From: Leucoraja erinacea
Taxonomy: Eukaryota
DNA length: 64,000 bases
Direction of reading: 5' to 3'
Assembly: GCF_028641065.1 (NCBI RefSeq)
Contig: NC_073384.1
Coordinates: forward strand, 48,050,001-48,114,000
A program made the translations under genes and the position numbers. Of this stretch, positions 8,088-56,654 are shown one piece after another; the stretch's first letter is position 1, and each line of letters begins with the position of its first letter. The notes under the pieces are model-generated. The model saw only the letters and a program-made list of their open reading frames with translations, searched no databases and had not been told where the DNA came from.

Positions 8088-9271
8088 TCTCTATACTTAT
8101 AAAACTGTATTTATTTGTGTATGTGTTAGTGTATAATCACATCTTCTCGCAAAAACGACGGGCTAACGGTAAACTTTTTACATATTCCGATAGAGATTTT
8201 TCCCGTGGAGTCTGAAATCGCCTTATCTGAAATTTTCATGCTTTATTTCTCAAGTTATTACTGAATTTTTTTTTAAATCGGACAAAATTTTGAAATAAAA
8301 ACAACTGTCTTTAGCTGATTATGTCACAATGTGTCTGCTCCGCGCGCCGTTCTGGCTCGTACTGCGAGTGGCATCACCCCCCCTCCCCACCTCTCCCTCC
8401 TCCCCCCTGCCGGGCCTCTCCCCCCACTCCCCCGGGAAACTGCCGGGCCTCTCCCCCACTCTCCCCCCTCCCCCCTCTCTCCCACTCTCTCCCGGGCCNN
8501 NNNNNNNNNNNNNNNNNNNNNNNNNNNNNNNNNNNNNNNNNNNNNNNNNNNNNNNNNNNNNNNNNNNNNNNNNNNNNNNNNNNNNNNNNNNNNNNNNNNN
8601 NNNNNNNNNNNNNNNNNNNNNNNNNNCCTCTCCCCTCCCCTTTTCCTTCTCCCTCTCCTCTCCCCCCCCCCGCCTCTCTCCACCCCCAGCCTCTCTCCCC
8701 CCCCCCCCCTCTCTCTCTTGTTTGTTTGTTTGTGTGTAATTACATCTTTGCGAAAAATCTACGTGGTACCAATAAATTTTTTACATATTCCGGTAGACAT
8801 TTTTCCCGTCGAGTCCAAAAGCTACTTATCTGAAAACTTTATGATTTATTTCTCGACATTACTGAAAATGTTTAAAATTACTTTGAATTTTAAATGTTTT
8901 TTACTGTTAAAATCATTCCTCACAGCTTCCAACACACTTTGATACAAAGTTGCAAGACAGGAATGCTGGCTGGAACACTCTGAACTTTTCAGCTGAATGG
9001 CATCTCACTGCAAGTGCATCTGACATTTGCAACAATGTTACCATCATTGCTCCTGGCAGGACAGGAGGGAGGGTCAATTGGTATTGCAATTGGGATTATT
9101 TTTTCAACTCCAGTGCTGGGGGAGGCTCACGAGCTATGATCTTGGCTGAGGAGTGCTCGAATCTTACCTTCGGCAACGGGTTGAGTTGGAGAACCATGCG
9201 TCACGTGGGGGCAACGGGTAGGGGACGGGTGCGTTGGGGGAGCAAACCTAACGGGTCTGCACTTGGTCTAG
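8088..9271 (+). mobile_element. Non-autonomous Helitron-like element (spans gap)
   Basis: A|TC...CTAG|T termini, no TSD, imperfect subterminal hairpin GCAAACCT-AAC-GGGTCTGC (9242-9260). Interrupts a minus-strand CR1 3' fragment. Confidence 0.65.
8499..8626. other. Assembly gap (128 N) in C/T-rich low-complexity sequence
   Basis: Run of n flanked by poly-C/CT tracts. Confidence 0.99.
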
Positions 9272-11495: not shown

Positions 11496-11508
11496 CACAG
11501 TTAATAGA

Positions 11509-11714
11509 CACAAATTTCTGGAGTAACTCAACGGGTCAGGCAGCATGTCTGGATAAAAAGGGTGGATGACGTTTCCAGTTGGAACCCTTCACCCTTCAAA
11601 AGGATTCCGACCCGAAAGGTCATCCACCCTTTTTCTCCAGAGATGCCGCTGAGTTACTCCAGCACTTTTGTGTCTATCTTCAGTATTATCTAGCATCCGC
11701 AGTTCCTTCCCACA
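11509..11714. mobile_element. Palindromic Penelope-derived short element
   Basis: Inverted arms CTGGAGTAACTCA.CGGGTCAGGCAGCAT / ATGC..CTGAGTTACTCCAG; 13-bp TSD CACAGTTAATAGA (11496-11508, 11715-11727). Confidence 0.8.
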
Positions 11715-11871
11715 CACAGTTAATAGATTATGTTCTGTAATTGTTGCTATCATCAATATGATCCCACATAAAGGCAAATTGTACTGTAGATTACATATAT
11801 TTACTTGGTTTTTATTAGTGGATCGAAATGTGAAACATCCTGCTTAGTTCAATCTAATTTTCTTGGTTTAC

Positions 11872-12049
11872 GCTGGTTACGCAAATGCTGAAATCTTGAG
11901 CAAACTCAGCAGTTTTGCAGCATCTTGAAGATCAATCTGAAGAAGGGTTCCGACCGAAAAGGTCATTTGTGATGAAAGACAGATGATGTTTTGGGTCAGA
12001 ACTCTTCTTCAGACTGATCCTCAAGTTTCTCCAGCAGTTTGTTTTTTTG
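11872..12049. mobile_element. Rearranged Penelope-derived short element
   Basis: Contains CTGAAGAAGGGTTCCGACCGAAAAGGTC and an inverse core; flanked by duplicated TTCTTGGTTTAC. Confidence 0.65.
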
Positions 12050-12404
12050 TTCTTGGTTTACTAAATTATTCTCATCGTAAGCCAACTAAATTGTTGGCAA
12101 GGAATTCATGATTGCAATATTTCAGCCAAAAGGTTTTGCAATTTCTTCGGAAAACAAATAACATGGTGTTAAATTATGGGGATAACAGGAGAAAAAATAA
12201 TGAATAGTTGCTGCTCATGGAATTTTCTTTTGACATTAATGTAAACTGAAAGGCCACAGCAAACTTCACTGATAATATATTACCACTGATAAGCCAAGTT
12301 CACTTTAACCTTCTCAGAATTAATATTTCGACAGCATCTCTTCACATCCAATTTGTTGTACCCTTATGAGAAGCTTACAATAAAAATAATCACAAAACAT
12401 ACTT

Positions 12405-23550: not shown

Positions 23551-26500
23551 ACCATTAATGTTTTATTCTATACAGTGTCTAATTACTTACCGCAAGTAAC
23601 ATGGAAACACTCCCTAAGATGTTTTTCCCCCCCAAGTTACATGGATAGGATAGGTTTTGAGGGATATGGGCGAAAGGCAGGGAGGTGGGAATGGTGTAGA
23701 TGGGACACGTTGATTAATATGGGCAAGTTGAGCCGAAGGGTCTGTTTCCACGCTGTATGATTCTATGTCTCTATGACTATGACTCTTAACATTGGCCTCT
23801 GCATTGACCTTTGCGACTGCATTGACCTTGGAGGCAAGAGATTGAAGGGGTATGGGAGCAGATAAATGTCCGCACTTGGGTAAATGCTGATGCAGACAGA
23901 TTGGGCCAAATAGAGGATTTGCTAACATTTATGTCTGAACTTCTTGTGTTTTTCGGTTATTTTGTAATTTAACAGGATGAGCTCTGAAACAGATTGCATT
24001 TCTGCTGTCGCATTGGTGCAGCTGCTGTTGAAATTGGAGCTGGCTTGTGAAGTATTATGCATCACAGATGGCATATAAATATTGAGGATTTTCAAGAGGA
24101 AAGTAACAGAGCTATATCAGCATCTGCCAGGGAGGCAGCGATCGCTGTGCTTTGATCCGGGTTCCGGTATTCACGTGCAGTTGTGCAGCCTCTTTGTAGG
24201 AAAGCTGGCACATGACATGAGGTACGGATGGACCTTGTTGATTTAGCAATTTATTATCATTCCATTAGTGCATTAAAACACTTCTTGCTCCGATTTCCTC
24301 CCACACCCTGAAGAGAGGCGTTATATGGCAATTGTAAGTGAGCCTGACTCTGACATGTATGTGGTAGAATCTGAGGAGAGTTGATGACAATGTGGGAAGA
24401 ATGAGTTAAAATGGTCACTGCCTTTTTTTTTTGTAATAAAAAGGACCTGCAGATGCTGGTTTATGTACCGAGGTACAGTAAACTGCTTTTTTTTTGCATG
24501 CGATCCAGTCAGTGAAAATACTATACATGTATTATAATCAAACTGTCCACGGTGGAGAGATACAGGATGAAGGGAGTAACGGTTAGTGCAAGATAAAATC
24601 CAGTAAAGTCCAATTAAAGAGTACATGTTGTCCTGTTTCATGTGGACTGAACTGCAGATGCTGTGTTACACCAAAGATAGACACAAAATACTGGAGTAAC
24701 ATTAGCGGGTCTGAAGAAGGGACTCAACTCGGAATGTCACCTATTCCTTTTCTCCAGAGATGCTGCCTGACCGCTGAATTATTCCAGCATTTTGTGTCTA
24801 TCTTTGCTTTTTTCATGTTCAGACATGTTGGGATCCAGAACAGATTTCCATTCGAACAGTTGCTTCCACTGTGGGCAACTGCAAAGGGTTGCAGTTCAAT
24901 GTGGTTAAAAGTCACTGGATTGGATATCATATTCTAATATTTCGGAGAGGCTTACAGAAAAGTGCAATACTCATTTTGTGAGGATTTTAGATGGATACAA
25001 TTTATTTGTCTATCTTCATGCTAAAACACAACGTAACCAGAGGACTTAACAGTTAGAATAAGGAAAAATTATTTTTAAGATGCAAAGCAAAATATCTTGT
25101 TTTCCCTTTTGGGCTGAAGGTAGAAGGGGAGATGTAAGAGTCTGCAGATGCTGAAACCATGAGCAAAAAAACAGTGCTGGAGGAACTCTGCGGGTCAGTC
25201 AGTGTAGGGGGTTAAGAGGGGAAGGTCGATCAGCCATGATTGAACGGCAGAGTAGACTTGATGGGCCGAATGGCTTAATTCTGCTCCTATCACTGATGAA
25301 CATCTGTAAAGAGTCTTGAATCGTCACCTGCCTATTCTCTTCACAGATGCTGCCTGACACTTTGATTGTTTTTCTGTAGGAGGAGAGACATTTAGTGGTA
25401 ATGATGTACAGTAAATGATGTACATTAAATGACATGGACCTGGTCTGATTTGAGTGTGAATTACTGTCCTTTGCCACTTGTTCCACTCCTACCACTTGGC
25501 CATTCTAATGCCTCGCAGATTGTAGGCACATATGTGAGAAAGTCAATTATGGCTGCAGTACTCTATAATCGGGATCGAACCTGGGTCTCCGGCGCTGTAA
25601 GGCAGCGACACAAACTCTCTAGGAAAGCTAGGGTGTGACATGAGGAATTGACCTTGTTGATTGCCATAAGATTCCAGTTTATTTCCTGATGGTGGGAAGG
25701 TATTATTAGGTAATGTAGGACATCTCATGGATATTTAGAAATTTGACATAATTTTTCATTTAAAAGACAGATTAGTGAAATTGATAAAAAAGCGTCTGGC
25801 AACATGGATTTAAAACGAGATTTCATGATAGAAAGCCAAGGGTTATAATATTGCTTTTTAGATGGGGCGATGAAGTTTCTTCAATTCTCGCAGGGACCAC
25901 GGCTTTCTCTTTATGTTAATTTGTAATGAATTGAATATAGCATGAAAGACAAAATCTCAAAATTTGCTCACCAACATTTTATACAACTGTTACTGAGACG
26001 TATGCACCGCACAATGTAATTCTTTTGCACAATCCACAAATGCACAGTCGTCATATTTTGACACCGTTTACAAAGAAAAAGGTTGTATGTCCAGTCAACA
26101 TCCTGGAAGTACTAGAGTGCCCTTGATCATGCTCTGTCCAACGAAAACATGTGCCTTTTTCATCACGTTGTCTACCTATGTCACCACTTTTGGGGAATGA
26201 TGTAATTGTTTCCCCGAGGTCTCTTTGTTCTACAGCACTCACTAAGGCCCTGTAATTTACTGTCTGTGTGCTAACCAGGTTTAATGATGTAATTCAAAGA
26301 AGTACGTTGAATCCCTGTGTAAATTTTGGTAAGTTGCTAAGTATTATAGCTAGGATGGTATTATGGGGTTGCCTGACATTAGAAATTAAAACAAAATCTT
26401 AATAATGGAAATACCCATTCTAATAAACTGAATTCTAATAGAATCAATGAAGAAAAAAAGTTCTGCCTTTGTCCCAGATGTTAAGTTTATCAGAATCTAA

Positions 26501-27900: not shown

Positions 27901-28961
27901 TGTAATGTCCTGAATGTGTCAGCCCTCTGGAACCTGTAGTACCTTCCACAGATCACCTTTAGGAAGAGATAGTAATCTTTAATTCCTATGAATAGGAGGC
28001 TCTCAATGCAAATTTGAGACATGACTTGCTGAATATATGTTGGAGGAAGAAATGATAGCAATGTTCAAGAGGCATATGGACTGACAAATGAACAGGAAGG
28101 CAGATGCGAATAAAGTGCTGGAGTAACTGAGCGGGTCGGCAACATCTCTGAAGAGGTGTCTCGACCCGAAATGTCATCCATTCGTTCTATCCAGAGATGC
28201 TGTCTGTCCCGCTGAGTTACTCTGGCATTTTATGTCTATCTCGCGAGAACGTGGATAGGTGACATTTTGGCTCCTGACCCGACGTCACCGAACCACATTC
28301 TCCAGTGATGCTGCCTGACCTGCTCAGTTACTCCAGCTTTGTGTCCCTTTTGTGTAAACCAGCATCTGCATGAAGGCAGATGGGGTTAGATAACATGATT
28401 GGTGCAGATTTGTGATGCCATACTGCTTCGTTTTAGAGCCTTTTATTAGATTTGTAAATCATAGTTTTCCTTCAGAACTGTTATTCATTTACCTAAAAGC
28501 TATGGAAAATAATCTGCAGCAATAACCTCTGAATTTTAACTGCAGTTTCAGATTTTTTGTTTTTAATTGAGCATTATTTTCATTTTGAGGAGTGCTATAT
28601 TTTATATTAAAAAAGTAAATAATATAAGCCTATAGACTTTAGCTTTAATGTTTAAGAAGGAACTGCAGATGCTGGAAAATCGAAGGTAGACAAAAGTGCT
28701 GGAGAAACTCAGCGGGTGCAGCAGCATCTATGGAATGAAGGAAATAGGCAACGGGTTAAAATATAAAATATTGAATTAATATATTTCACTGACCGCACAG
28801 TCACATTTGAGTCATATACATATTGAATCAACAACTTAGCAAGTACATCAATGCCTACACTTCCTTAGAAGGCTTAGGAAGTTCGGCATTTCCCTACAAC
28901 TCTCACCAACTTCTACAGATGCACCATAGAAAGCATTTTATCAGGATGCATCACAGCTTCA

Positions 28962-31560: not shown

Positions 31561-31629
31561 GGATCAAAGCAAATTGTGAAGGGGGTGGGGGGAAGGATTT
31601 ACAAGATGCTGAATTTAATATTTATTGCG

Positions 31630-32355
31630 CAAAACACAAAATGCTGGAGTAGCTCAGTGGCTCAGGCAGCATCTTTGGAGGGAATGAACATGCAATATTT
31701 CAGGTCGGGACCCTTCTTCAGACTGATTGTGGGAGGGGGGAGAAAGCTGGAAATGCGGTGGGGCTGGCACAAAGCCTGGCAAGTGATGTGTCATATATCG
31801 GTGAGATTGAGTGTACACTTGATGAACCTTTCGCTGGGCACTTACACTCAGTCAGTCTACGCAAGCTCCCAGTTGCCAAACATTTTAACTCCGCTTCCCA
31901 TTGCCATACTGACCTTTCGGACTTGGGCTTCCTCCACTGTCAGATGAAGCCACACACAAATTGGAGGGGCAGCAGCTCGTACTTCACTTGGGCAGCTTGC
32001 AACTCAGCAGTATGAATTGATTTCTCTAATTTCAAGCAAGCAACTCCTGCATTCCCTCCCTCCCAGTTGTCCTACCTGTTCCACTGTTCACATCCTGGTA
32101 TCCCTCTTGTTATCACACCTTTTCCAGCCAACAATGGGTCATATTGGGGTCCACCGTTCCTCTGGTCATCTTTTGCCAGCCCTGATTTGTTCTGGCCTTT
32201 ACTTGTCTCCAGTTTATTTCCTCCTGCCACCCCCCCCCCCCCCCCCCCCCCCCCTAACCAACCTATACTTTTAGTCTGAAGAAGAGTTCCGAACCAAAAC
32301 GTCACCTGTTCCTTTCCTCCAGAGATGCTGCCTGACCGCTGAGTAACTCCAGCAG
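31630..32355 (+). mobile_element. Penelope-like element, 5'-truncated with inverted 5' terminal repeat
   Basis: GIY-YIG remnant YIGE...F..HL.SV...PVAKHFNS.SH, then 3' UTR and repeat with hammerhead-like core (32277-32303); inverted repeat copy at 31630-31790. Confidence 0.8.
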
Positions 32356-33319
32356 TTATTATTACCTATTATGGGTACAGAACAGCCTGGCAAGTGATAG
32401 GTAGATACAGGTAGAGGGGATTTGCTTGACAGATGGATGGAAAAAGGCTAGAGATGAAAAAGGGTATCAGATATGGAGTGAAATGTGAAGCCAGAGGAAG
32501 GGAAGAAGGTAGATGAGGAATGGGGGAGGGGAGTGGGAGTTGGCGAGTGGGAGTGCTGGAAGCTGAAATTATAGCTTTGTAATTGACCCATCAGAAGAAA
32601 TAAAGCACAGCGGACCAGATTGTGGGTGAGATTTGGAAGATTTTGGAAGGTAAATGTCCTGTGATCATTGGTATACACTCCAAGGCTGTGCCAACACAGG
32701 AGCAATGAAACCGAGCACAGCTGCTCGGTGATCTCAGCACTCTCTGAATACATTGAAGATGAATAATAAGCTATACATGGGATTTTTGATTACTGTGAGT
32801 GAATGGTTAACAAGGCTGTAATTTGCTGCAAAGAAATGGATAACATTGTGACCCATTGAAGTAAAACACAAAGTGGTTTCTGGATGTCAGTTGAGCCAGG
32901 CGATTAAATTATAGCCTTACACTCTTCCTGTTTGCATGTTCTCTGTTTATCTCCCTCTCTCTCTCTGTTTTTAATATTACATATTTTATCATCCCAAAAT
33001 GCAAAAGCAAACTGCAGAGAAAATTCGGGTGTCATTACTAAAGATTATTGCCATGACTCACAGTTGAGACAATGACAGCTCCAAAGCATAATTATATATT
33101 ATCAGTGCAGTGCAAACCCATCAAATCTCGAGGCTCTTTTCCTTGGAAGAGCGTGGGGCAGCTTCAGCATCTGGTGCATGAAGTGCCAACTTGATGAGGT
33201 TACAACACAGGGCAGCATACTGTATGTTGTCTTCTGTTGGCAAAACTCCATTTTAAAATCTTGCTACTTCCAGCTTTTCTATGGTGATGGACATGTTATA
33301 ATCATCAGATGAACAAGAC

Positions 33320-33770: not shown

Positions 33771-34813
33771 ATCAAAGCTAAGGAGCAGCACAATTGGTCA
33801 ACTTGTGGACTGCTGCCCATCAACCCCTGTGTTCCGGGTTCAACCCTGACCCCCGATACTATCCGTATGGGGCTTAAATGTTGTCTGTGACTCTGCATTT
33901 CCTCCGCATGCTCCTGTTTCCTCCCACACTCCAAAAACATGCGGGTTGGTAGATTAATTGGCCATTAAAATACCCCCAGAATGTGCGTTAATGGGATAAT
34001 CTGAGGAGAGTTGATGGTAATGTGGAGAGAATAAAATGGGATTAATGTAGGATTAGTGTAAATGGGTGTTTGATGGGAACCTCCCCCTATCAAGAAAGAA
34101 TCTCCAGATTCAGGAACAGTTTCTTCCCAGCTGTCATCAGGCAACAGAACCACTCTATCACCAACTAGACCTACCATTTACCTCATTGGAGACCCGAGGA
34201 CTATCTTTATTGGGACTTTACTGGACTTTATCTTACACTGTGCGTTATTCCTTTTATCCTATAACTGTTTGCAGTGGATGGCTCAATTGTAATGTATAGT
34301 CTTACCGCTGACTGGTTAACACGCAACAACAAGCTTTTCACTGTTTACATGTGATAATAAATTAAATTAATCTGCGAAATTCTCTGTCACAGAAGGTGGA
34401 GATGCTGTGTCAATAAATATATCGGAAAGGAAACCGATATATTTATTAATGCAAAGGGTTATGGGAGAAGCTAGGAAAATAGTGGAGAAGCCGATGATAT
34501 CCATGATTGTATTGAATGTTCAAGCTGAAGGGCCAGTTGGTACACTCCTGCTTGAACTTTTACGTTTCTTAGATCTTCAGCATCAATATCCCGGAGATTT
34601 GCCTTTGGCCAGAAACTCACCTGGATCAATCTGAAAAATTCCTTGACTTTTTCAGCTGGTCAAAAGGTGAGTGGCTCACCTGACCCTTGGGGCCTTCTTA
34701 CCACTGAAAAAGCTCACAAGAATCATGAGGAACTTATCAAAAACTTTAAAAAAAAAGACACAAAGTGCTTTCAACATAATTTGTTTCCTTAAAAGCATTC
34801 CTGTATAATTATT

Positions 34814-35116
34814 GGTGGCAGACAAAAATGCTGGAGAAACTCAGCGGGTGAGGCAGCATCTATGGAGCAAAGGAAATGGGCAACGTTTCAGGTCGAGACC
34901 CTTCTTCAGACTCTGACGAAGGGTCGCAATCTGAAACGTTGCCTATTCCCTTCGCTCCATAGATGCTGCCTCACCCGTTGAGTTTCTCCAGCATTTTTGT
35001 CTACCTTCGATTTTGCAGCATTTGCAGTTCCTTCTTAAACAGAAAGTGTTTCCTTCGGATTGACTCATTTTTTAACTGCAAATGCTTGACTTTTAAACAA
35101 GTTCCTTCTTAAACAA
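34814..35116. mobile_element. Palindromic Penelope-derived short element with 3' extension
   Basis: ~95-bp inverted arms centred near 34910; 14-bp TSD CCTGTATAATTATT (34800-34813, 35117-35130). Confidence 0.85.
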
Positions 35117-35579
35117 CCTGTATAATTATTTTCTCATTTCCAACATGAGGTTGCTTTCCTGATCATCAATTTTTGAATGAGCCACTGTATGAACATTGTG
35201 CCCCTAAAATGCCATTGTGTTATTACCTCAGCTTTAGAGACGTATTTGAAACATTTTTATTGTTATTCTCTTGTTCACCTTCCCTGCTTGGTGTGATGAG
35301 AGTGGATGTAGTGCGTTTTATAGTGAGTGGAGAAGGATTGCAAAAATCATTGTGTGTAGGAAAGAACTGCGGATGCTGGTTTAAATCAAAGCTAGACACA
35401 AAATGCTGGAGTAACTCAGTGGGACAGGCAGCATCTCTGGAGAAGGAATGGGTGATGTTTCAGGTTGAAACTGAGTTGAGTTACTCCAGTATTTTGTGTC
35501 TATCTGCAAAAAGCATTTATATTTTGTGAAACATTTGTTGGTTGTATGTAATTTTTCGATACCTCTTTTTTTTTGTTAG

Positions 35580-36295: not shown

Positions 36296-37970
36296 GCTGT
36301 TATAGGATTTGACTGTTATAAGGAGTATTCCAATAACGATGAGAAGTGAATGTACTCAATTGTGTGTAAACCCACCTGATAATGTCAAAGCTAAAATATA
36401 TATTGCATTCCCTGGCAAATCAGCTCTGTGTATTGGACCTTTGCATCCTTTTTCCAAATGAACCCTATTTTAACAATTTAAATAATGTACAATCACATTA
36501 ACAATCAATGCACAGAGGTGGTGGTTATGTTATAGGAATAAATTGTTTAAAAAAACGCATCAAACCAGGACGGTTGGCATGAGTTTGTTGAATGAAAGTT
36601 ATATGAACCTGACTTGATTGAAATGTTTGAGAAGTGAATTTACGAAATGGAAGCAGACCCCGAGTCCTTGAGCCTTCTCTACCATTTGATAAGAGCATGC
36701 GTGATCTAATTACGGTCAGGGCTGCATTTTCCTGTCTGTATCCCATAAACCTTGACACCAATAGACCAAATATCTGACCTCTCTGCTTTCATTATATTCA
36801 TCGATTTGAGGAAGGGAAATATTTTTGAGGGGGCACCAAGAGAGCTGAATATCCTTGAGAACACATTAAAAAGGATTAATGATTGGTGCAGAGGGTTTTT
36901 TTTAGAGCGTTACGGCGCGGAAACCATGCCGACCAGTGGCCCTCATACACTCGCACTATCCTACATTAGGGACAATTTACATTCTTTACCAAATACAATT
37001 AACCTACAAACCTGCACATCTTTGGAGTAGAAACATAGAAAATAGGTGCAGGAGTAGGCCATTCGGCCCTTCGAGCCAGCACCGGCATTCAATATGATCA
37101 TGGCTGATCATCCAAAAGCAGTACCCCGTTTTTTCCCCATATTCCTTGATTCCTTTGTTAGAGTATGAGAGGAAACCCATGCGGTAATGGGAGGAAACCG
37201 GAGCACCCAGGGAGAAAACCCATGCGGTAATGGGAAGATCGTACAAACTCCATACAGACAGCATCCGTGGTCAGGATCAAACCCGGGTCTCTGGCGCTGT
37301 GAGACAGCAACTCTAACCCTATGCCACCCTTATGTAATCCACCATATAATCCACTCCATGGAGTGAAGATGATTGGACTTTATTGCCTTCCATCACAGTG
37401 AGGAATGTGGGGAATCGGCTGTGGTGGATGTTTATGTTAACTTGTACGTAGTTTGTGTGTTTTGTAGCATTTTATAATATGACTGTATGGTAAATCGCGT
37501 TTCACTGTACCTTAATTGGTACACGTGAGTATAAAATACCCTTTGAACCCCCTTTGGATTTTGCCAAGAAATTTGAAGAAGTCTCGTGTATAGGAAGGAA
37601 CTGGTTTAAACCGAAGATAGACACAAACTGGGGGACAGGCAGCATCACGGGATGGAAGGAATGGGTGAAGTTTTGGGTAGAGACTCCTCTTCATACTGAG
37701 GAAGGGTTTCGACCTGAAAAGTCACCCATTCCTTCTATCCAGATATGCTGCCTGTCCTGCTGAATTAGTCCAGCATTTTGTGGATGTAGTCGACCAAACG
37801 GCGTGTTTTTATGCTGTATATCTTTGACTCTATAATTGTGAAGCTTCCAGGTGATATATAAATTGTTTGATGGTGACCAAAATAACATTGGACTTCAAGT
37901 AGACAATAGAAGATAGACACAACAAGCTGGAGTAACCCAGCGGGACAGGCAGCATCTCTGGAGAGAAGGA

Positions 37971-38010
37971 ATGGGTGACGTTTCGGGTCGAGACCCTTCT
38001 TCAGACCAAT
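37971..38010 (-). ncRNA. Minimal type-I hammerhead ribozyme motif (Penelope-associated)
   Basis: Minus strand ATTGGT-CTGAAGA-A-GGGT(CTCG)ACCC-GAAA-CGTC-ACCCAT: CUGANGA and GAAA boxes, stem II, palindromic ACGU stem III, GUC cleavage triplet, 5/6-bp stem I. Confidence 0.6.
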
Positions 38011-41109: not shown

Positions 41110-41470
41110 ATGTTGAAGAAGGAACTGCAGATGCTGGAACAAACCTTTCTGTCCTGGGCCTCCTCCATGGCCAGAGTGAGTCCCACCGTAAATTGGAGGA
41201 GCAGCATCTCATATTTCGCTTGGGTAGTTTACACCCCAGCGGTATGAACATTGACTTCTCCAATTTCAGGTGGTCCTTGCTTTCTCCCTCTTTCCCCTCC
41301 CCTTCCCAGCTCTCCCACAGCCAACTGTCTCCACCTCTTCCTTTCTTCTTCTCGCCCCTCCCAACCCCTCATCAGTCTGAAGAATGGTCTCGACCCGAAA
41401 CGTCACCCATTCCTTCGCCCCATAGATGCTGCCTCACCCGCTGAGTTTCTCCAGCATTTTTGTCCACCAT
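41110..41470 (+). mobile_element. Penelope-like 3' fragment nested in a Rex/Babar fragment
   Basis: LSVLGLLH.QSE.HRKLEEQHLIFRLGSLHPSGMNIDFSNF (PLE endonuclease C-terminus), then CTGAAGAATGGTCTCGACCCGAAACGTC. Confidence 0.85.
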
Positions 41471-41575
41471 TGGTTATGTTGGCTGCTTTTCCAAGGCAGT
41501 GTGAAGTGTAGCTGGAGTTGATGTTGGGGAGGCTGGTCTGTGTGATGCACTGGGCTGCATCCATAACTATGTACA

Positions 41576-43797: not shown

Positions 43798-44300
43798 GGG
43801 GCAGCAGGGTGGTGATAGTGGAAGTGTTGCTGCCTTGCAGCGCCATAGACCCGGGATTGATCCTGACTATGGGTGCTGTCTGTACAGAGCTAGTACATTC
43901 TCCCCATGACCGCCTGGGTTTTTCCCGGTTGTTCCAGTTGCCTCCCGCACTCAAAGACGTGTAGATTTGTAGGTTAATTGGCTTTGCTAAAAATTGTAAA
44001 TCGTTCCTAGCGTATGGTGTGTGCCAGTGTAACGGGGATCGCTTCTTTCATGTTCATCTTCCATGTTTCAATGTTGACATCACTGTCATCGACCATCCTG
44101 AAAAGGACGCAAGCTTCCGGCGACAATCAGTGGGAGCCATCACTTGTTGCAAGAGATGATGGCGGTAGCAGAATTAGCTCGGGACACTTCCAGTTTCCAG
44201 TCCCACGACTTGGACGCTTCTGCTATGGGGATCATTGGCCGGCGCAGACTCAGTGAGCCGATAGGCTTGTGTCCACACTGTATCTCTAAACTAAACTAAA
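43798..44300 (+). mobile_element. HE1/V-SINE-type SINE with a 184-bp insert
   Basis: Head, V-domain and (TAAAC)n tail present; foreign sequence at 44041-44224. Confidence 0.8.
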
Positions 44301-46690: not shown

Positions 46691-47969
46691 GTACATTTTT
46701 TTCCCTTATTTCCTTATGTACTTGTTTGTCATTATGTTGCAGCGGCACCAAACATGGTGAATAAACAGTTGCTTTATTCAGACACAATAGGTTCGAAATA
46801 CATACACGTTTGGTCTAACATATTGTCATTGCTGCTGCAGCTGAGCGAGGGTGTTGTCTTGTGCTCAGCTACCTGTCGACTCATGGTCTCCAGGTGAGAT
46901 CTGCTTATGTACTAGGACACTCCCCTTAACTCGTGATGTCATATGACAGCCCTCATAACCACTCACGAGGGTTCGACCGTAAGTGGACTGACCATCAGCT
47001 GACGCCACAATGTACTTTTGTAAGAAAATGTTTGTTATTTGCAAGAAAATATAAATACAACTGTCCTTGTATGTCAAATAGCTGCCTTGGAAATTCATTG
47101 TGCAAAACTGATTCACTTGGCTGTGTGCACGCATTTTATCCCAGCACTGTGCTGCCTGCCTTACTGTAAATGCCCTTGCACAGGTATCATTGCCAGTTGC
47201 GGTACATGGTTCCATAGGTGGAAAGTGAATTTTGCACAATCTTATCCATTCATCACCTGGTTCTTGAACCCTGAGGGCGGTGATCTCAAATTCATTTGAG
47301 TACAGAGAAAACCGATAAGATGGAATTGCATCTAACGAACAGAACAATAGAGGACAAAGGAAACCAAGGGCACTTCAGCCCTCGGGTCCATTTGATATCC
47401 AGTGTCCTGATTGTCAAATATATTTCCTTATGAAAGTTGGTTTTAAAAGACATATGAAAGGCCTTGGGTTGCAATAAACAAATGTGTTGATGCCCAGAGA
47501 ACTATTATTATCTATGATTGACAAACAATACGTATCTCCCATGTCTGTCAACTATTATTAATATTGTTTCCAGGAGGCATGGTTTTCCTTTCCTTCTGTC
47601 AAAAATGTATGTTGCTTCCCTTTTTGGCGGATTCAGGTTTTTATTTTTGGTGTGTGGATTATCCTCATGATTTAAGCCCCTTCTTTCACTCGGCGTTATT
47701 TCTTATTGCTTTTGTCCCCGTTGCCTACCCACCCTACTTACAACTTCTCTCCATTTTAGCTGTTTTCTCCCCACCCTCCTCTTGCTTTCACCTCTGGCCC
47801 TCTCCTTGTTCTCTTATTTGCCCAGCTCTTCAATGGTTGAGCACTCTGCCCTCTACATATCTCCTCTCCAAATATACAATGCATTGCATTAACTTAATCT
47901 TCAATATAAAGACCTTTTTGTACCGAAAACATCAACTGTCATCTCCTAACAAAGACTAAAATATTGCTG

Positions 47970-48460
47970 TCAGGCAAATCAGCGGGTCAGGCAGCATCTC
48001 TGGTGAATATTACTAGGTGACATTTCGGGTCGGAACTCTTCTTCAGACTGAGACTGAGTCTGAAGAAGGGTCCCGACCCGGAAAATCATCTAGCCATGTT
48101 TTCCGAGATGGTTCCTGACCCGTTGAGTTACTCCAGCACTTTGTCTTTTTTGTAAATCAGCATCTGCTGTTCCTTGTACCTAAATATTATCTCTTTGCAA
48201 TTTTCTGGCACTCAAATCTTGAATTTTTGCAACAATTCGCTGCTTTGTCCCAATTTTGGAAATGACTAGCACTAGTTCTCTGTGTAGGAAAGAACTGCAG
48301 ATGCTGGTTTAAACCGAAGATAGACACAAAAAGCTGGAGTCACTCAGTGGGACAGGCAGCATCCCTGGTGAGAAGGAATGGGTGACGTTTCAGGTCGAGA
48401 CCTTTCTTCAGTCTGAAGGTCTCGACCTGAAACGTCACCCATTCCTTCTCTCCAGTATTA
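47970..48460. mobile_element. Two adjacent palindromic Penelope-derived short elements
   Basis: Inverted arms around CTTCAGAC..GTCTGAAG centres; flanking duplications CTAAA(A)TATT and TAGTTCTC. Confidence 0.75.
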
Positions 48461-48929
48461 GTTCTCAACCTTTGTTAGCCTCTGACAGGGTGAGTATTCT
48501 GATATAGCAGCCTTTCTCTCGTTCTGCAATGTCGATTGGTTTTTTGCTTTGAACAACTAACTAACCAGAAGATGTCGTGCATTGAATGTGCAAAAACCTC
48601 ACTTGCCTTTCTTTGTTCAAGAGGATGCAGTGGCAGATATGAGCCATCAGGTGGTTCTCTAACAACACTTAATAACCTAGCCAGGAACAAAATTGTCAGA
48701 TTGTGTACACGGGTATATTTGACTGACAAGCTGTAGTTTTAACTGAATGGCAAATCCTCTTCCTTTGTTTTTTATTTTTCACCCTTTACTTTTACTACAC
48801 TTGCGATATTCACTTCCATAGATCTCTAATCCAAAACATCCTCATCATTTTTGTCTGTTAGCTGTTATATAGGTTGGGGTCTGGCATGGTTACAGGTTGG
48901 GCAACATTTTCTTTCTGCCACAAAAACGT

Positions 48930-53770: not shown

Positions 53771-56654
53771 TACTCCATACAGACGGCACCCACAGTCAGG
53801 ATCGAACTTGGATCAATGCCGCTATAAGGCAGCACTCCACCACTGAGCCACCGTGCTGCCCACAAGGTGTAACTATTGGTAAAATTATTTTGAGAACAGG
53901 ATAGAAAGAAGGCAGTCAGAAAAAAGGGTCTCGACCCGAAAAGTCACCCATTCCTTCTCTCCGGAGATGCTGCCTGTCCCGCTGTTACTCCAGCATTTTG
54001 TGTCTATCTTCCGCAATAATTCATGAATGCGTAGGTCCTAAAATTTCACCTTCATTCAGCCAGATCATTGCTGATCCTGTCTGGATCATTTTCTTGCCTT
54101 ATTCCCGTGGCCTCTGCTTTCCTTGATACTGGAAATCATCAGTTTCAGCCAAGAATATTTTCAATATTGGAGCATCCACAGGAATCTGGAACAGGGAATG
54201 CCAAAGATTTATAACTCTGAGTACAGGAATGGAATTAGAATTTTTTAAATGAGAAAGTTGCAAATGAAATTTGTAATTTGTGTATTTGGTTAAATATCTG
54301 TAGCATTTGCTCCTGATTTCCCGTCATTCATCGCAATTCCAGACTCGGGGGAAATTTCCTTACAGCAAAAACACAAAATGCTGGAGTAACTCTGGAGAGC
54401 ATCCAGGCAGCATCTCTGGAGAGAAGGAATGATTTGAGTCGAGGCCCTTCTTCAGACTTTCAGCATCTTCCCTGTCAATCTTTCTCAGAATTGTCACATT
54501 CATCTGAACACCAGTAGGCCAATCTTGCTTAATTTCAGCTCGTAAGACAAACCATTTATTTCAGGAATCATTCCATGTTTCCTCAGTCAGGTGAATAATT
54601 TCATTAAAAATATTAAGTTTTCTATTCTTTCCTTGATTTATTCCTCACACCTTATCAATGCTGGCTATCAAGTACCTTCATGACATAGGAGCAGAATTGG
54701 GCCATTTGGCCCATTGAGTCTACTCCAACATTCACTCATGGCTGAGCTATCTTTCCCTCTTAACCCCATTCTCCTGCATTCTCCCCATGGCCTTTGACAC
54801 CATTGCTAATCAGGAACCTGTCGATCATCTCCACCTTAAAAATACACAATGACGACCTCCCCAGCCGTCCGTGCCAATGAAATCCACACATTCACCGCCC
54901 TCTGGCTAAAGAAATTACTCCTCATCTACTTTCTAAAGGTGTATCTCAAAACTAACCTCATCTTGCAGCACTTTGCCCTGGCCTTCTATGTAATGGCATT
55001 TACAATACTCATCCAAATAGTCCTTAAATGTTATCAGGGTATGTGCCTTTTTCAACCCTTTAGGATGACTTGCCAAGGAATTTGATGACTGGCAATTGGA
55101 GTAATGTCGTTCCTTTAACTGGAAAGATTGCCATCCAAATGATTCGGCAATCATTTCCAGTTTGGAATTTTCCATGAATTGGCTATTCGATAACGTTAAT
55201 TTTACCCACAATTATAGTTTTCCTATGTTTATTGGAAAGGTAATGACCTGGCATATTTTCAATTATCTTTGAATTAATTTTAAGGATAGCAGAATAAGGT
55301 TGTAGTTATAGAGATACACTGAACTACAGATGTGGGAATCTTGAGCAAAACACAAAGTGTGGAATAACTCAGTGGGTCAGGCAACATCTGGGGAGGGAAT
55401 GGACAGGCGACATTTTGGGTGGGATCTCTTCAAGGTTGCAATTAAGTTTTTCTGATTCAATACCATGGCAAAGTGTAAAGGAAATGTGCGGGATAAGTTT
55501 TTTTTTTAACACAGAGGATGGTGAGTACATAGAACGCTCTACCAGAAGTGGTAGTGCAGGAGGACATGATGGTGGCATTTAAGAAACTTTTGGAAAGGCA
55601 TATTGATTTGCAGGGAATGGAGGGACGTGGGTTATGTACAACCCAATAAAAGTTGGTCTTGGCCTCATGTTTGGCACGCACATTGTGGGCCAAAGGGCCT
55701 GTTCCTGTGTTGTACAGTTCTATGGTCTACCCATTTTAGAAAATCCTATTTTTTAAAAAAACAGTTAATATGAAAATAGATTTGGTTTGATGTATGTGTG
55801 AATTTGAGTTTATAAACATTCCTACCAATCATTCATCGATAACTTAATGGTCCTGCTTTGGTTAAATTTGAACTATTTTTCAGTTTTTTCATCAGTGGAT
55901 TTTCAGTATTTTATTGCTTCAGATTTTAATCCCCTTTTAGATTATTTTTCTGTTTATGTATTGTGAGTAAACAGATTTATTTTCAAGATTTCGGATTAAA
56001 ATAGAAAAGCAAAGAAATGAAATGTTTACTATCATTTGGGCAATTTGCAGTGGTAATCTTTTAATGTTAAGCATTCCCTTTGATCCCTTTTTTTTGTTAA
56101 GTATAGTATTGCCAACTGAAGAGTGACCAGTTTATGGATGAATGGACCCTTTAGATCATTGGTAGGCATCCCCTAATCGGTGCAGTCTGTGGGCTTGCTG
56201 AGTGCCACAAACATTTCAGCAAGCTTGTATCAAAATACAAAATCTTCCTGCTAAATGCCCATTTCTTCCCTCAAAAAACATGCACAGAAATTGGGGTAAT
56301 AATTGTAGTCAAAAGCATTCTTTTGCACCATTCGCATGCTGTTATTATGTTGTAGTTTTCTGCTTGAAAGTTTCCCCTTTTTACAACTTCCCGATTACAA
56401 CTGTGCAGCTTGGGGAGTTATTCTCAGCATCAAAGGAACTGTTTTCCAGCAGTGAGTTGGGGGAAACAGAAAATGAAAATTGACAACCCTATCTTTGGTT
56501 GCTACATTTTATTAAAAAAACAACAGCTGCATGGCCATTGGAAATCCCATTAGTTAACTTGCAGTAAGAACTTTGTACATTGTTGTTAGAAACCATTTCA
56601 AAAATGACAATGAAAACTATCCACAGGTCTACCAATGTTTCTCAAACAACTGGT

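What the first reader, a model, noticed from the sequence alone, without database searches (positions are those of the whole stretch)
34814..35116. Short palindromic Penelope-derived element with back-to-back hammerhead cores that seems to move as its own unit
Seen: well over a dozen full or half copies across the window (e.g. 11509, 11872, 16521, 24650, 28110, 34814, 37610, 47970, 48280, 50640, 52100, 53920). They share an arm ...GCTGGAG(T/A)AACTCAGCGGG.CAGGCAGCATC...GACGTTTCGGGTCGAGACCCTTCTTCAG joined to its reverse complement. The same arm is the 3' terminal repeat of GIY-YIG-bearing Penelope remnants at 31630-32355 and 41110-41470. Several copies have their own 8-14 bp TSDs (CCTGTATAATTATT, CACAGTTAATAGA, TTCTTGGTTTAC, TAGTTCTC). 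The centre of each arm reads CTGAAGA-stem-GAAACGTC. Established: PLE terminal repeats carry minimal type-I hammerheads that cleave as dimers, and truncated PLEs often have inverted terminal repeats. Inference: a high-copy, non-coding, PLE-mobilised fold-back element that presents a hammerhead core whichever strand is transcribed.
Basis: partly seen in the sequence, partly recalled or inferred. Interest (0 to 1): 0.72.

Follow-up and report, generated by a model that had tools for sequence, protein, structure and literature searches.

The report
Mirror-image stumps of Penelope insertions
This DNA palindrome is real, but it is the shortest form of an ordinary insertion of a very abundant Penelope-like jumping gene, likely built afresh at each landing site from two short copies of the element's end rather than moving as its own ribozyme-bearing family.

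Summary
The palindrome, its target-site duplication (TSD) and its Penelope origin are confirmed. A family that moves as its own unit is not supported. The arms are the pseudo-LTR (pLTR) end of a Neptune/Nematis-type PLE whose long copies show the same layout with arms of 0.3–3 kb. Centres vary: 27 different spacers in 50 copies, and only 6 of 57 unselected pairs have the neat centre. The ~35-nt tail sits on exactly one arm (46 of 50), sometimes the shorter one. The 1-nt loop is T or A at random relative to the tail (27:26). Variants are mirrored within a copy, with no left/right asymmetry across copies. The best fit is two target-primed cDNAs, one per nicked target strand, joined head to head; this step is inferred. 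The hairpin is predicted to bury both hammerhead cores (30–41 kcal/mol), and the focal cores are decayed. Fixed-centre copies exist (≥430) but ride as cargo in a TIR-bounded transposon. The architecture is published, and this scan noted it before on other DNA (137 notes hold the search words). Local extra: the focal copy carries ~57 nt of flank from a copy 29.5 kb away.

The parts
34800..34813 (+). left copy of 14-bp TSD
34818..34909 (-). short (tail-less) arm: pLTR end, positions +1 to +92 counted from the C of CUGA
34882..34909 (-). decayed minimal hammerhead core (G.U at the base of stem II; fails strict descriptor)
34910..34912 (.). 3-nt centre ACT (left arm reaches position -3)
34913..35004 (+). 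right arm: pLTR end +1 to +92; core at 34913-34940 with stem II broken
35005..35041 (+). PLE tail; in full-length copies it runs on into the element body upstream of the ORF
35042..35100 (+). 57-59 nt, 86% identical to the host flank beyond the tail of another copy 29.5 kb away on the other strand (G000:C8:48114606-667)
35100..35115 (+). second copy of the last 16 nt of the tail
35117..35130 (+). right copy of 14-bp TSD
11496..11727 (.). head-to-head pair, both arms cut at +6, tail on right, 13-bp TSD
11860..12061 (.). rearranged pair with inverted centre, 12-bp TSD
24645..24810 (.). asymmetric pair (left arm starts at +58 with tail, right at +1)
28110..28241 (.). asymmetric pair (left arm starts at +40)
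31604..32370 (.). same layout with a 554-nt interior holding a decayed GIY-YIG piece
37588..37790 (.). symmetric pair, 2-nt centre, tail on left
37902..38004 (-). single arm; the only window arm passing the strict hammerhead descriptor
41113..41475 (.). inverted tail piece plus 5'-truncated direct copy with the endonuclease C-terminus
47948..48175 (.). pair with 13-nt centre, tail on right
48273..48466 (.). pair, tail on left, right arm +4 to +47, 8-bp TSD

Best explanation
The palindrome is two short copies of the end of a Penelope-like retrotransposon, joined head to head inside one target-site duplication and likely made anew at each site rather than copied from a palindromic master. Shown: the parent is an EN+ PLE; insertions carry a tail on one side only; arms range from under 100 nt to over 3 kb; centres differ. 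Inferred mechanism: the endonuclease nicks both target strands about 14 bp apart, and each nick primes its own cDNA, one from the tail end (+128) and one from the pLTR end (about +92 to +95). Most cDNAs stop in a narrow zone (+10 to -15) around the Inr-like TCAGTCT just before the core; this may be the RNA 5' end or a stall at the C-rich tract. The two cDNA 3' ends are then joined, either by annealing at the 8-of-9-bp self-complementary TCAG-N-CTGA (1-nt loop, mismatch resolved either way) or by end joining with short templated inserts. The hammerhead cores are passengers, predicted to be locked in the hairpin.
For: Same layout in long copies: inverted arms of 294, 392, 618 and 923 nt with TSDs. 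Tail on exactly one arm in 46/50 pattern-selected pairs (0 with two) and 46/57 unselected pairs. Tail on the shorter arm in 4 of 5 long TSD-bearing pairs and on the more truncated arm in 17 of 28 short asymmetric pairs; a single cDNA folding back cannot make this. Loop T:A relative to the tail 27:26 (53 of 60 copies scorable). 27 spacers in 50 copies; 15/29 spacers of 8 nt or more match adjacent arm sequence vs 20% of shuffles. Tail-arm variants mirrored in the own short arm 28/74 vs 5.6% in other copies' arms; smallest arm-asymmetry p 0.11 (24 young copies). Arms outside short pairs also end in the same zone: 0.035-0.075 ends per nt at +10..-10 vs 0.003-0.014 outside +10..-15 (134 arms). TSD in 25/30 young copies, 22 of them 13-16 bp. 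Junctions near the cleavage site are rare: 123 vs 2194. In vitro, an Anolis PLE nicks and extends both strands from two internal starts, and ribozyme mutants insert normally (PMC11167929).
Against: The modal 1-nt-loop form is abundant (410 + 224 exact matches) and several masters of both polarities cannot be formally excluded. Mirrored variants could also come from arm-to-arm gene conversion, and the signal is weak in old copies (8/51 vs 6.9%). Some palindromes have multiplied with a fixed centre (14 of 50 hits; >=430 copies), though as cargo. The cause of the stop zone is not shown: extra G before AGT is enriched in paired arms (13/21) but not single arms (8/26). The long-copy test has only 5 cases. 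The hazard estimate depends on an incomplete set of upstream references and on HMM start positions.
Confidence: 0.8

Rival explanations
1. One reading: a non-autonomous palindromic element is transcribed and retrotransposed as a unit, using hammerheads on either strand.
For: A modal centre exists (22/50); TSDs flank the whole palindrome; PLEs can mobilise sequences in trans (PMC3846280 passages); non-autonomous PLE derivatives are described (PMC8557442; bioRxiv 10.64898/2026.07.22.740005).
Against: Random loop polarity, no arm asymmetry, varied centres. Both cores pass the descriptor in only 9/50. Opening a core costs 30-41 kcal/mol in palindromes vs 6-9 in parent context. Among 227 short pairs outside the cargo loci, one pair (L099/L242) shares both an unusual junction and a flank.
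Confidence: 0.07
2. Fold-back self-priming: one cDNA (or an antisense template) snaps back at the short palindrome and copies itself, as proposed for rotifer PLEs.
For: TCAG-N-CTGA and the minor ACGT centre are self-complementary; arms mirror each other; proposed in PMC3846280.
Against: The copied arm must be the shorter one and cannot gain a tail, yet the tail is on the shorter arm in 4/5 long and 17/28 short asymmetric pairs.
Confidence: 0.1
3. ORF-less copies are occasionally re-used as templates: the focal copy was reverse-transcribed from RNA of the neighbour 29.5 kb away, with its second arm made anew.
For: The neighbour's 3' flank follows the focal tail.
Against: The centres differ; landing within 30 kb of the source is unlikely for a retrotransposon; a duplicated tail end fits DNA break repair templated from a nearby homologous copy; only two matches in the genome search. 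It concerns this one copy, not the class.
Confidence: 0.2

Closest known systems
EN+ Penelope-like element insertions with inverted 5'-truncated pLTR, one-sided 30-40 bp tail and TSD (Adineta Pen2a/Pen3a, PMC3846280; general scheme PMC8557442 fig. 2; passages read)
   Same: Head-to-head inverted pLTR, short palindrome at the junction, tail on one end, TSD.
   Different: Here the commonest product has no interior at all, extrapolates to about 2x10^5 copies, and tail geometry argues for two primed cDNAs instead of the self-priming proposed there.
Poseidon PLE of Anolis (PAc), in vitro TPRT (PMC11167929; parts 1-2 of 4 read)
   Same: Two internal RT starts giving the tail, both strands nicked and extended, hammerhead dispensable for insertion.
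   Different: Parent here has the CX2-5CxxC linker (Neptune/Nematis type) and the pLTR lies upstream of the ORF start; that paper does not analyse palindromic products in the parts read.
Minimal hammerheads of PLE pLTRs (PMC4209133; parts 1-2 of 4 read)
   Same: CUGA-N-GA, extra A, stem II, GAAA, palindromic ACGU, 2-bp helix I; dual motifs on opposite strands 100-700 bp apart were reported in Schistosoma.
   Different: Here the two cores abut and mask each other; no cleavage was tested.
Non-LTR retrozymes (bioRxiv 10.64898/2026.07.22.740005; part 1 and passages read)
   Same: Non-coding, pLTR-related, hammerhead-bearing.
   Different: Retrozymes are head-to-tail tandems that allow dimer cleavage; these are head to head.
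LINE-1 twin priming (recalled, not from a call)
   Same: Both target strands prime cDNA, giving an inversion inside a TSD.
   Different: In L1 the second primer lands at a variable internal site and arms do not overlap; here both start about 35 nt apart and copy the same region.

Membership tests
EN+ PLE (parent) | single ORF with RT then C-terminal GIY-YIG | tested here: met
   L230 806-aa frame: RVT_1 E 3e-6, GIY-YIG E 5e-3, both under curated cut-offs; motifs visible
EN+ PLE (parent) | CCHH motif, two Cys between GIY and YIG | tested here: met
   LIYCVRCSRCQQIYIG...EHL...HFN (definition)
EN+ PLE (parent) | partial tandems forming pLTRs, 5' truncation, tail | tested here: met
   7 of 23 near-full copies have an upstream pLTR whose tail runs into the body; 16 are 5'-truncated at scattered points
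Neptune/Nematis clades | CX2-5CxxC linker between RT and EN | tested here: met
   CNRKRCNTC (definition)
Neptune/Nematis clades | placement in RT phylogeny | not tested
   no tree built, no reference set in session
Self-propagating non-autonomous element (SINE/MITE-like) | fixed internal structure shared by copies | tested here: not met
   27 spacers/50; 6/57 neat centres
Self-propagating non-autonomous element (SINE/MITE-like) | polarity and arm-specific diagnostic changes inherited from a master | tested here: not met
   T:A 27:26; smallest asymmetry p 0.11; the cargo family shows such asymmetries as a positive control
Self-propagating non-autonomous element (SINE/MITE-like) | own TSD at unit boundaries | tested here: met
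   25/30 young copies; also expected for any single insertion
Minimal type-I hammerhead | core boxes and stem II with G10.1-C11.1 | tested here: not met
   focal arms fail; met in parents and in both arms of 9/50 palindromes
Minimal type-I hammerhead | stem II covariation | tested here: inconclusive
   two master variants differ by a one-sided U-A to U.G change and a loop base; no double change among common variants
Minimal type-I hammerhead | self-cleavage as dimer | not testable with these tools
   needs in vitro assay; Rfam gave no hammerhead hit at E<=1
Non-LTR retrozyme | head-to-tail tandem with at least two complete hammerheads | tested here: not met
   arms are head to head (definition)

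The most novel reading that the evidence does not exclude
These stumps are an in vivo record of how Penelope-like elements integrate: a dimer primes both target strands at once from the two internal start sites in the 5' pLTR of its RNA, both cDNAs run off at an Inr start just before the hammerhead, and they are joined through a 9-nt quasi-palindrome. This would replace the self-priming model for inverted pLTRs and explain why the tail is on one end only.
Probability: 0.5. Interest if true: 0.55.

Novelty: new member of a known kind. Interest (0 to 1): 0.27.

Why it matters
As a new self-propagating ribozyme element it does not stand. As data it has modest value: PLE integration is poorly understood, and the one-tail rule, tails on shorter arms, random loop polarity and 13-16-bp TSDs match the 2024 in vitro observations and give testable predictions. 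About 2x10^5 hairpins of ~90 bp (rough extrapolation from 614 kb) may also be a large source of double-stranded RNA in host transcripts; that is untested. For repeat curation, a palindromic consensus here would be a mistaken 'family'.

Tried and rejected
Rfam scan of the window: no hammerhead family; only weak mir-641, MIR9471, tRNA and CPEB3 matches below gathering scores. Cleavage site as the RNA 5' end: rejected, 123 vs 2194 junctions. Pfam GIY-YIG genome search: top hits were a different, contig-end PLE without this pLTR. Splice acceptor at CAG|T as cause of the stop zone: no shared upstream exon among truncated copies and no GT..AG joint among the joints shown (72 further joints not shown). 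Cap-derived G at -4: inconclusive. RNA: no RNA holder listed; reads of runs labelled with the same species as the holders map to the arms in large numbers (11,544 of 12.9 M, 96% running on into unlike sequence) with no place where many molecules begin or end; libraries are fragmented and not from this individual, so this says nothing on start site, cleavage or editing. A genome-wide count of loop base against tail side could not be run; it rests on 60 fetched copies, the first 30 of each list, 13 of which overlap the 50-copy set. Literature: searches found no paper on a self-propagating palindromic PLE family or on twin priming in PLEs; subscription papers, Repbase and Dfam were not searchable, a 2017 paper on PLE hammerhead dimers was not held, and no supplements were read. 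The host species was not determined.

Full report
Observation. The focal element is a 92-bp inverted repeat (83/92 identical) around ACT, with a 37-nt tail on the right arm and a 14-bp TSD at 34800 and 35117. The three other TSDs named are present. An HMM built from 24 real arms finds 47 arms in the window and none in reversed sequence. The window's 11 short head-to-head pairs have 11 different junctions, and three listed copies are single arms. Between the focal tail and its TSD lie 76 further nt, described below.

Abundance. The window is G000:C8:48050001-48114000 in a 2.19-Gb genome. The exact 28-nt core occurs 15,042 times. Back-to-back junctions occur 2,194 times with 0-12 nt between arms and 2,046 times with 13-43 nt. 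In 614 kb of unselected DNA (55 stretches of 10 kb plus the window) there are 298 arms; 57 pairs are head to head within 60 nt and 5 are tail to tail. This extrapolates roughly to 10^6 arms and 2x10^5 short palindromes.

Parent. A protein search found many long copies. L230 has an 806-aa frame with RT and GIY-YIG matches below Pfam's cut-offs, the CCHH motif and a CX4CX2C linker, which marks the Neptune/Nematis type. In 7 of 23 near-full copies an upstream pLTR runs through the tail into the body, and the ORF starts shortly after the tail. So arm plus tail is also the start of the unit. At least three arm subfamilies exist; the focal copy is of the middle type. Long copies carry inverted, 5'-truncated arms of 294-923 nt inside one TSD. 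The short palindrome is the lower limit of this series.

Unit or by-product. Among the first 50 junctions, 22 have a 1-nt loop and there are 27 different spacers. In unselected DNA 16 of 57 pairs keep both core starts and 6 have a gap of 3 nt or less. Spacers of 8 nt or more often repeat neighbouring arm sequence (15/29 vs 20% shuffled). Exactly one arm has the tail in 46/50, none has two. In 60 one-nt-loop copies, 53 could be oriented; the loop is T in 27 and A in 26, and both occur within the same sequence variant. In 24 young copies, tail-arm variants recur in the own short arm 28/74 times vs 5.6% in other copies, and no position differs between tail and short arms. In 9 older copies the signal is weak (8/51 vs 6.9%). 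A master copied with polarity predicts the opposite pattern.

Positive control. One spacer does recur (14 of 50 hits; 430 matches). Those copies share arm-specific deletions that break the cores and extend 0.4-1.5 kb beyond the arms. Three of 30 loci show both ends of a terminal inverted repeat with an 8-bp TSD, and 10 more show the left end. So palindromes can multiply, but as cargo of another transposon (hAT-like ends; family name recalled, not tested). Among 227 other short pairs, one pair shares both an unusual junction and a flank.

Mechanism. A cDNA that folds back can only copy what it already holds, so the tail must be on the longer arm. It is on the shorter arm in 4 of 5 long TSD-bearing pairs and on the more truncated arm in 17 of 28 short asymmetric pairs. 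Two separately primed cDNAs fit, and agree with the in vitro finding that a PLE nicks and extends both strands from two internal starts (PMC11167929). TSDs of 13-16 bp (22 of 30 young copies) give the inferred nick spacing. Arms end preferentially between +10 and -15 even outside short pairs, and rarely near the cleavage site (123 vs 2,194). The zone holds an Inr-like TCAGTCT (consensus recalled) that is also self-complementary over 8 of 9 bp. Whether it is a transcription start or a stall is not shown.

Hammerheads. Parents carry the minimal motif of PMC4209133 with at most 2 bp of helix I. The two common variants differ by a one-sided change, so covariation is not demonstrated. Only one window arm passes a strict descriptor, neither focal arm does, and 9/50 palindromes pass on both arms. 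Folding predicts that opening a core costs 30-31 kcal/mol in the focal copy and 41 in a young copy, vs 6-9 in parent context. The antisense arm is transcribed first on either strand, so kinetics should not rescue it (inference).

Focal extra. Bases 35042-35100 match, at 86%, the host flank beyond the tail of another head-to-head copy 29.5 kb away on the other strand, followed by a repeat of the last 16 tail bases. The two centres differ. Templated DNA repair from a nearby homologue is more likely than retrotransposition of the neighbour's RNA.

Known status. Inverted pLTRs with junction palindromes, one-sided tails and TSDs are described (PMC3846280; PMC8557442), as are dual motifs on opposite strands. 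Seven searches found no paper on a self-propagating palindromic PLE family or on twin priming in PLEs, within the limits of the library. The scan's earlier notes reach the same reading on other DNA; I stated my reading before seeing them, and they are not independent evidence.

Verdict. Real, PLE-derived, ordinary in kind; not a new self-moving ribozyme element. Interest 0.27.

Noticed in passing
L151-L180 (e.g. G000:C1:24089239, C1:35406879, C2:44858770): A composite non-autonomous element of about 1-1.9 kb (>=430 copies) with terminal inverted repeats and 8-bp TSD carries one or two decayed PLE palindromes as cargo; a few members (L142, L170) still have nearly intact arms.
   Followed up: partly
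window 35042-35115 and L124:606-864: The focal copy has taken up the flank of a neighbouring copy 29.5 kb away plus a duplicated tail end.
   Followed up: yes
L189, L190, L191 (G000:C23:1560-3836; ends of C37 and C39): A different PLE with an intact, nearly identical 759-aa RT/GIY-YIG frame lies within 4 kb of the ends of three contigs, next to a short tandem repeat; possibly subtelomeric and recently active.
   Followed up: no
L257:687-810, L298: Single-cell RNA reads lie on the arm 4 to 15 times more often in the orientation antisense to the PLE, if reads are sense to the RNA; internal oligo-dT priming or loss of sense copies from transcripts could explain it.
   Followed up: no
window 44167-44244 (-): Weak match to the CPEB3/HDV-like ribozyme model (21 bits, gathering 35, E 0.55); may be chance or a decayed retroelement ribozyme.
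   Followed up: no
window 53791-53855 (-): tRNA-like stretch (25.9 bits, below gathering), probably a SINE head.
   Followed up: no
L099:5025-5160 and L242:2754-2950: Two unlinked palindromes share an unusual junction and a flank: probably a second cargo family.
   Followed up: partly
G000:C1:41539646 and C1:41599355: Two junctions 60 kb apart share nearly the same 29-30-nt spacer: likely a local duplication.
   Followed up: no
window 8499-8626: 128 N; no bearing on the finding.
   Followed up: no
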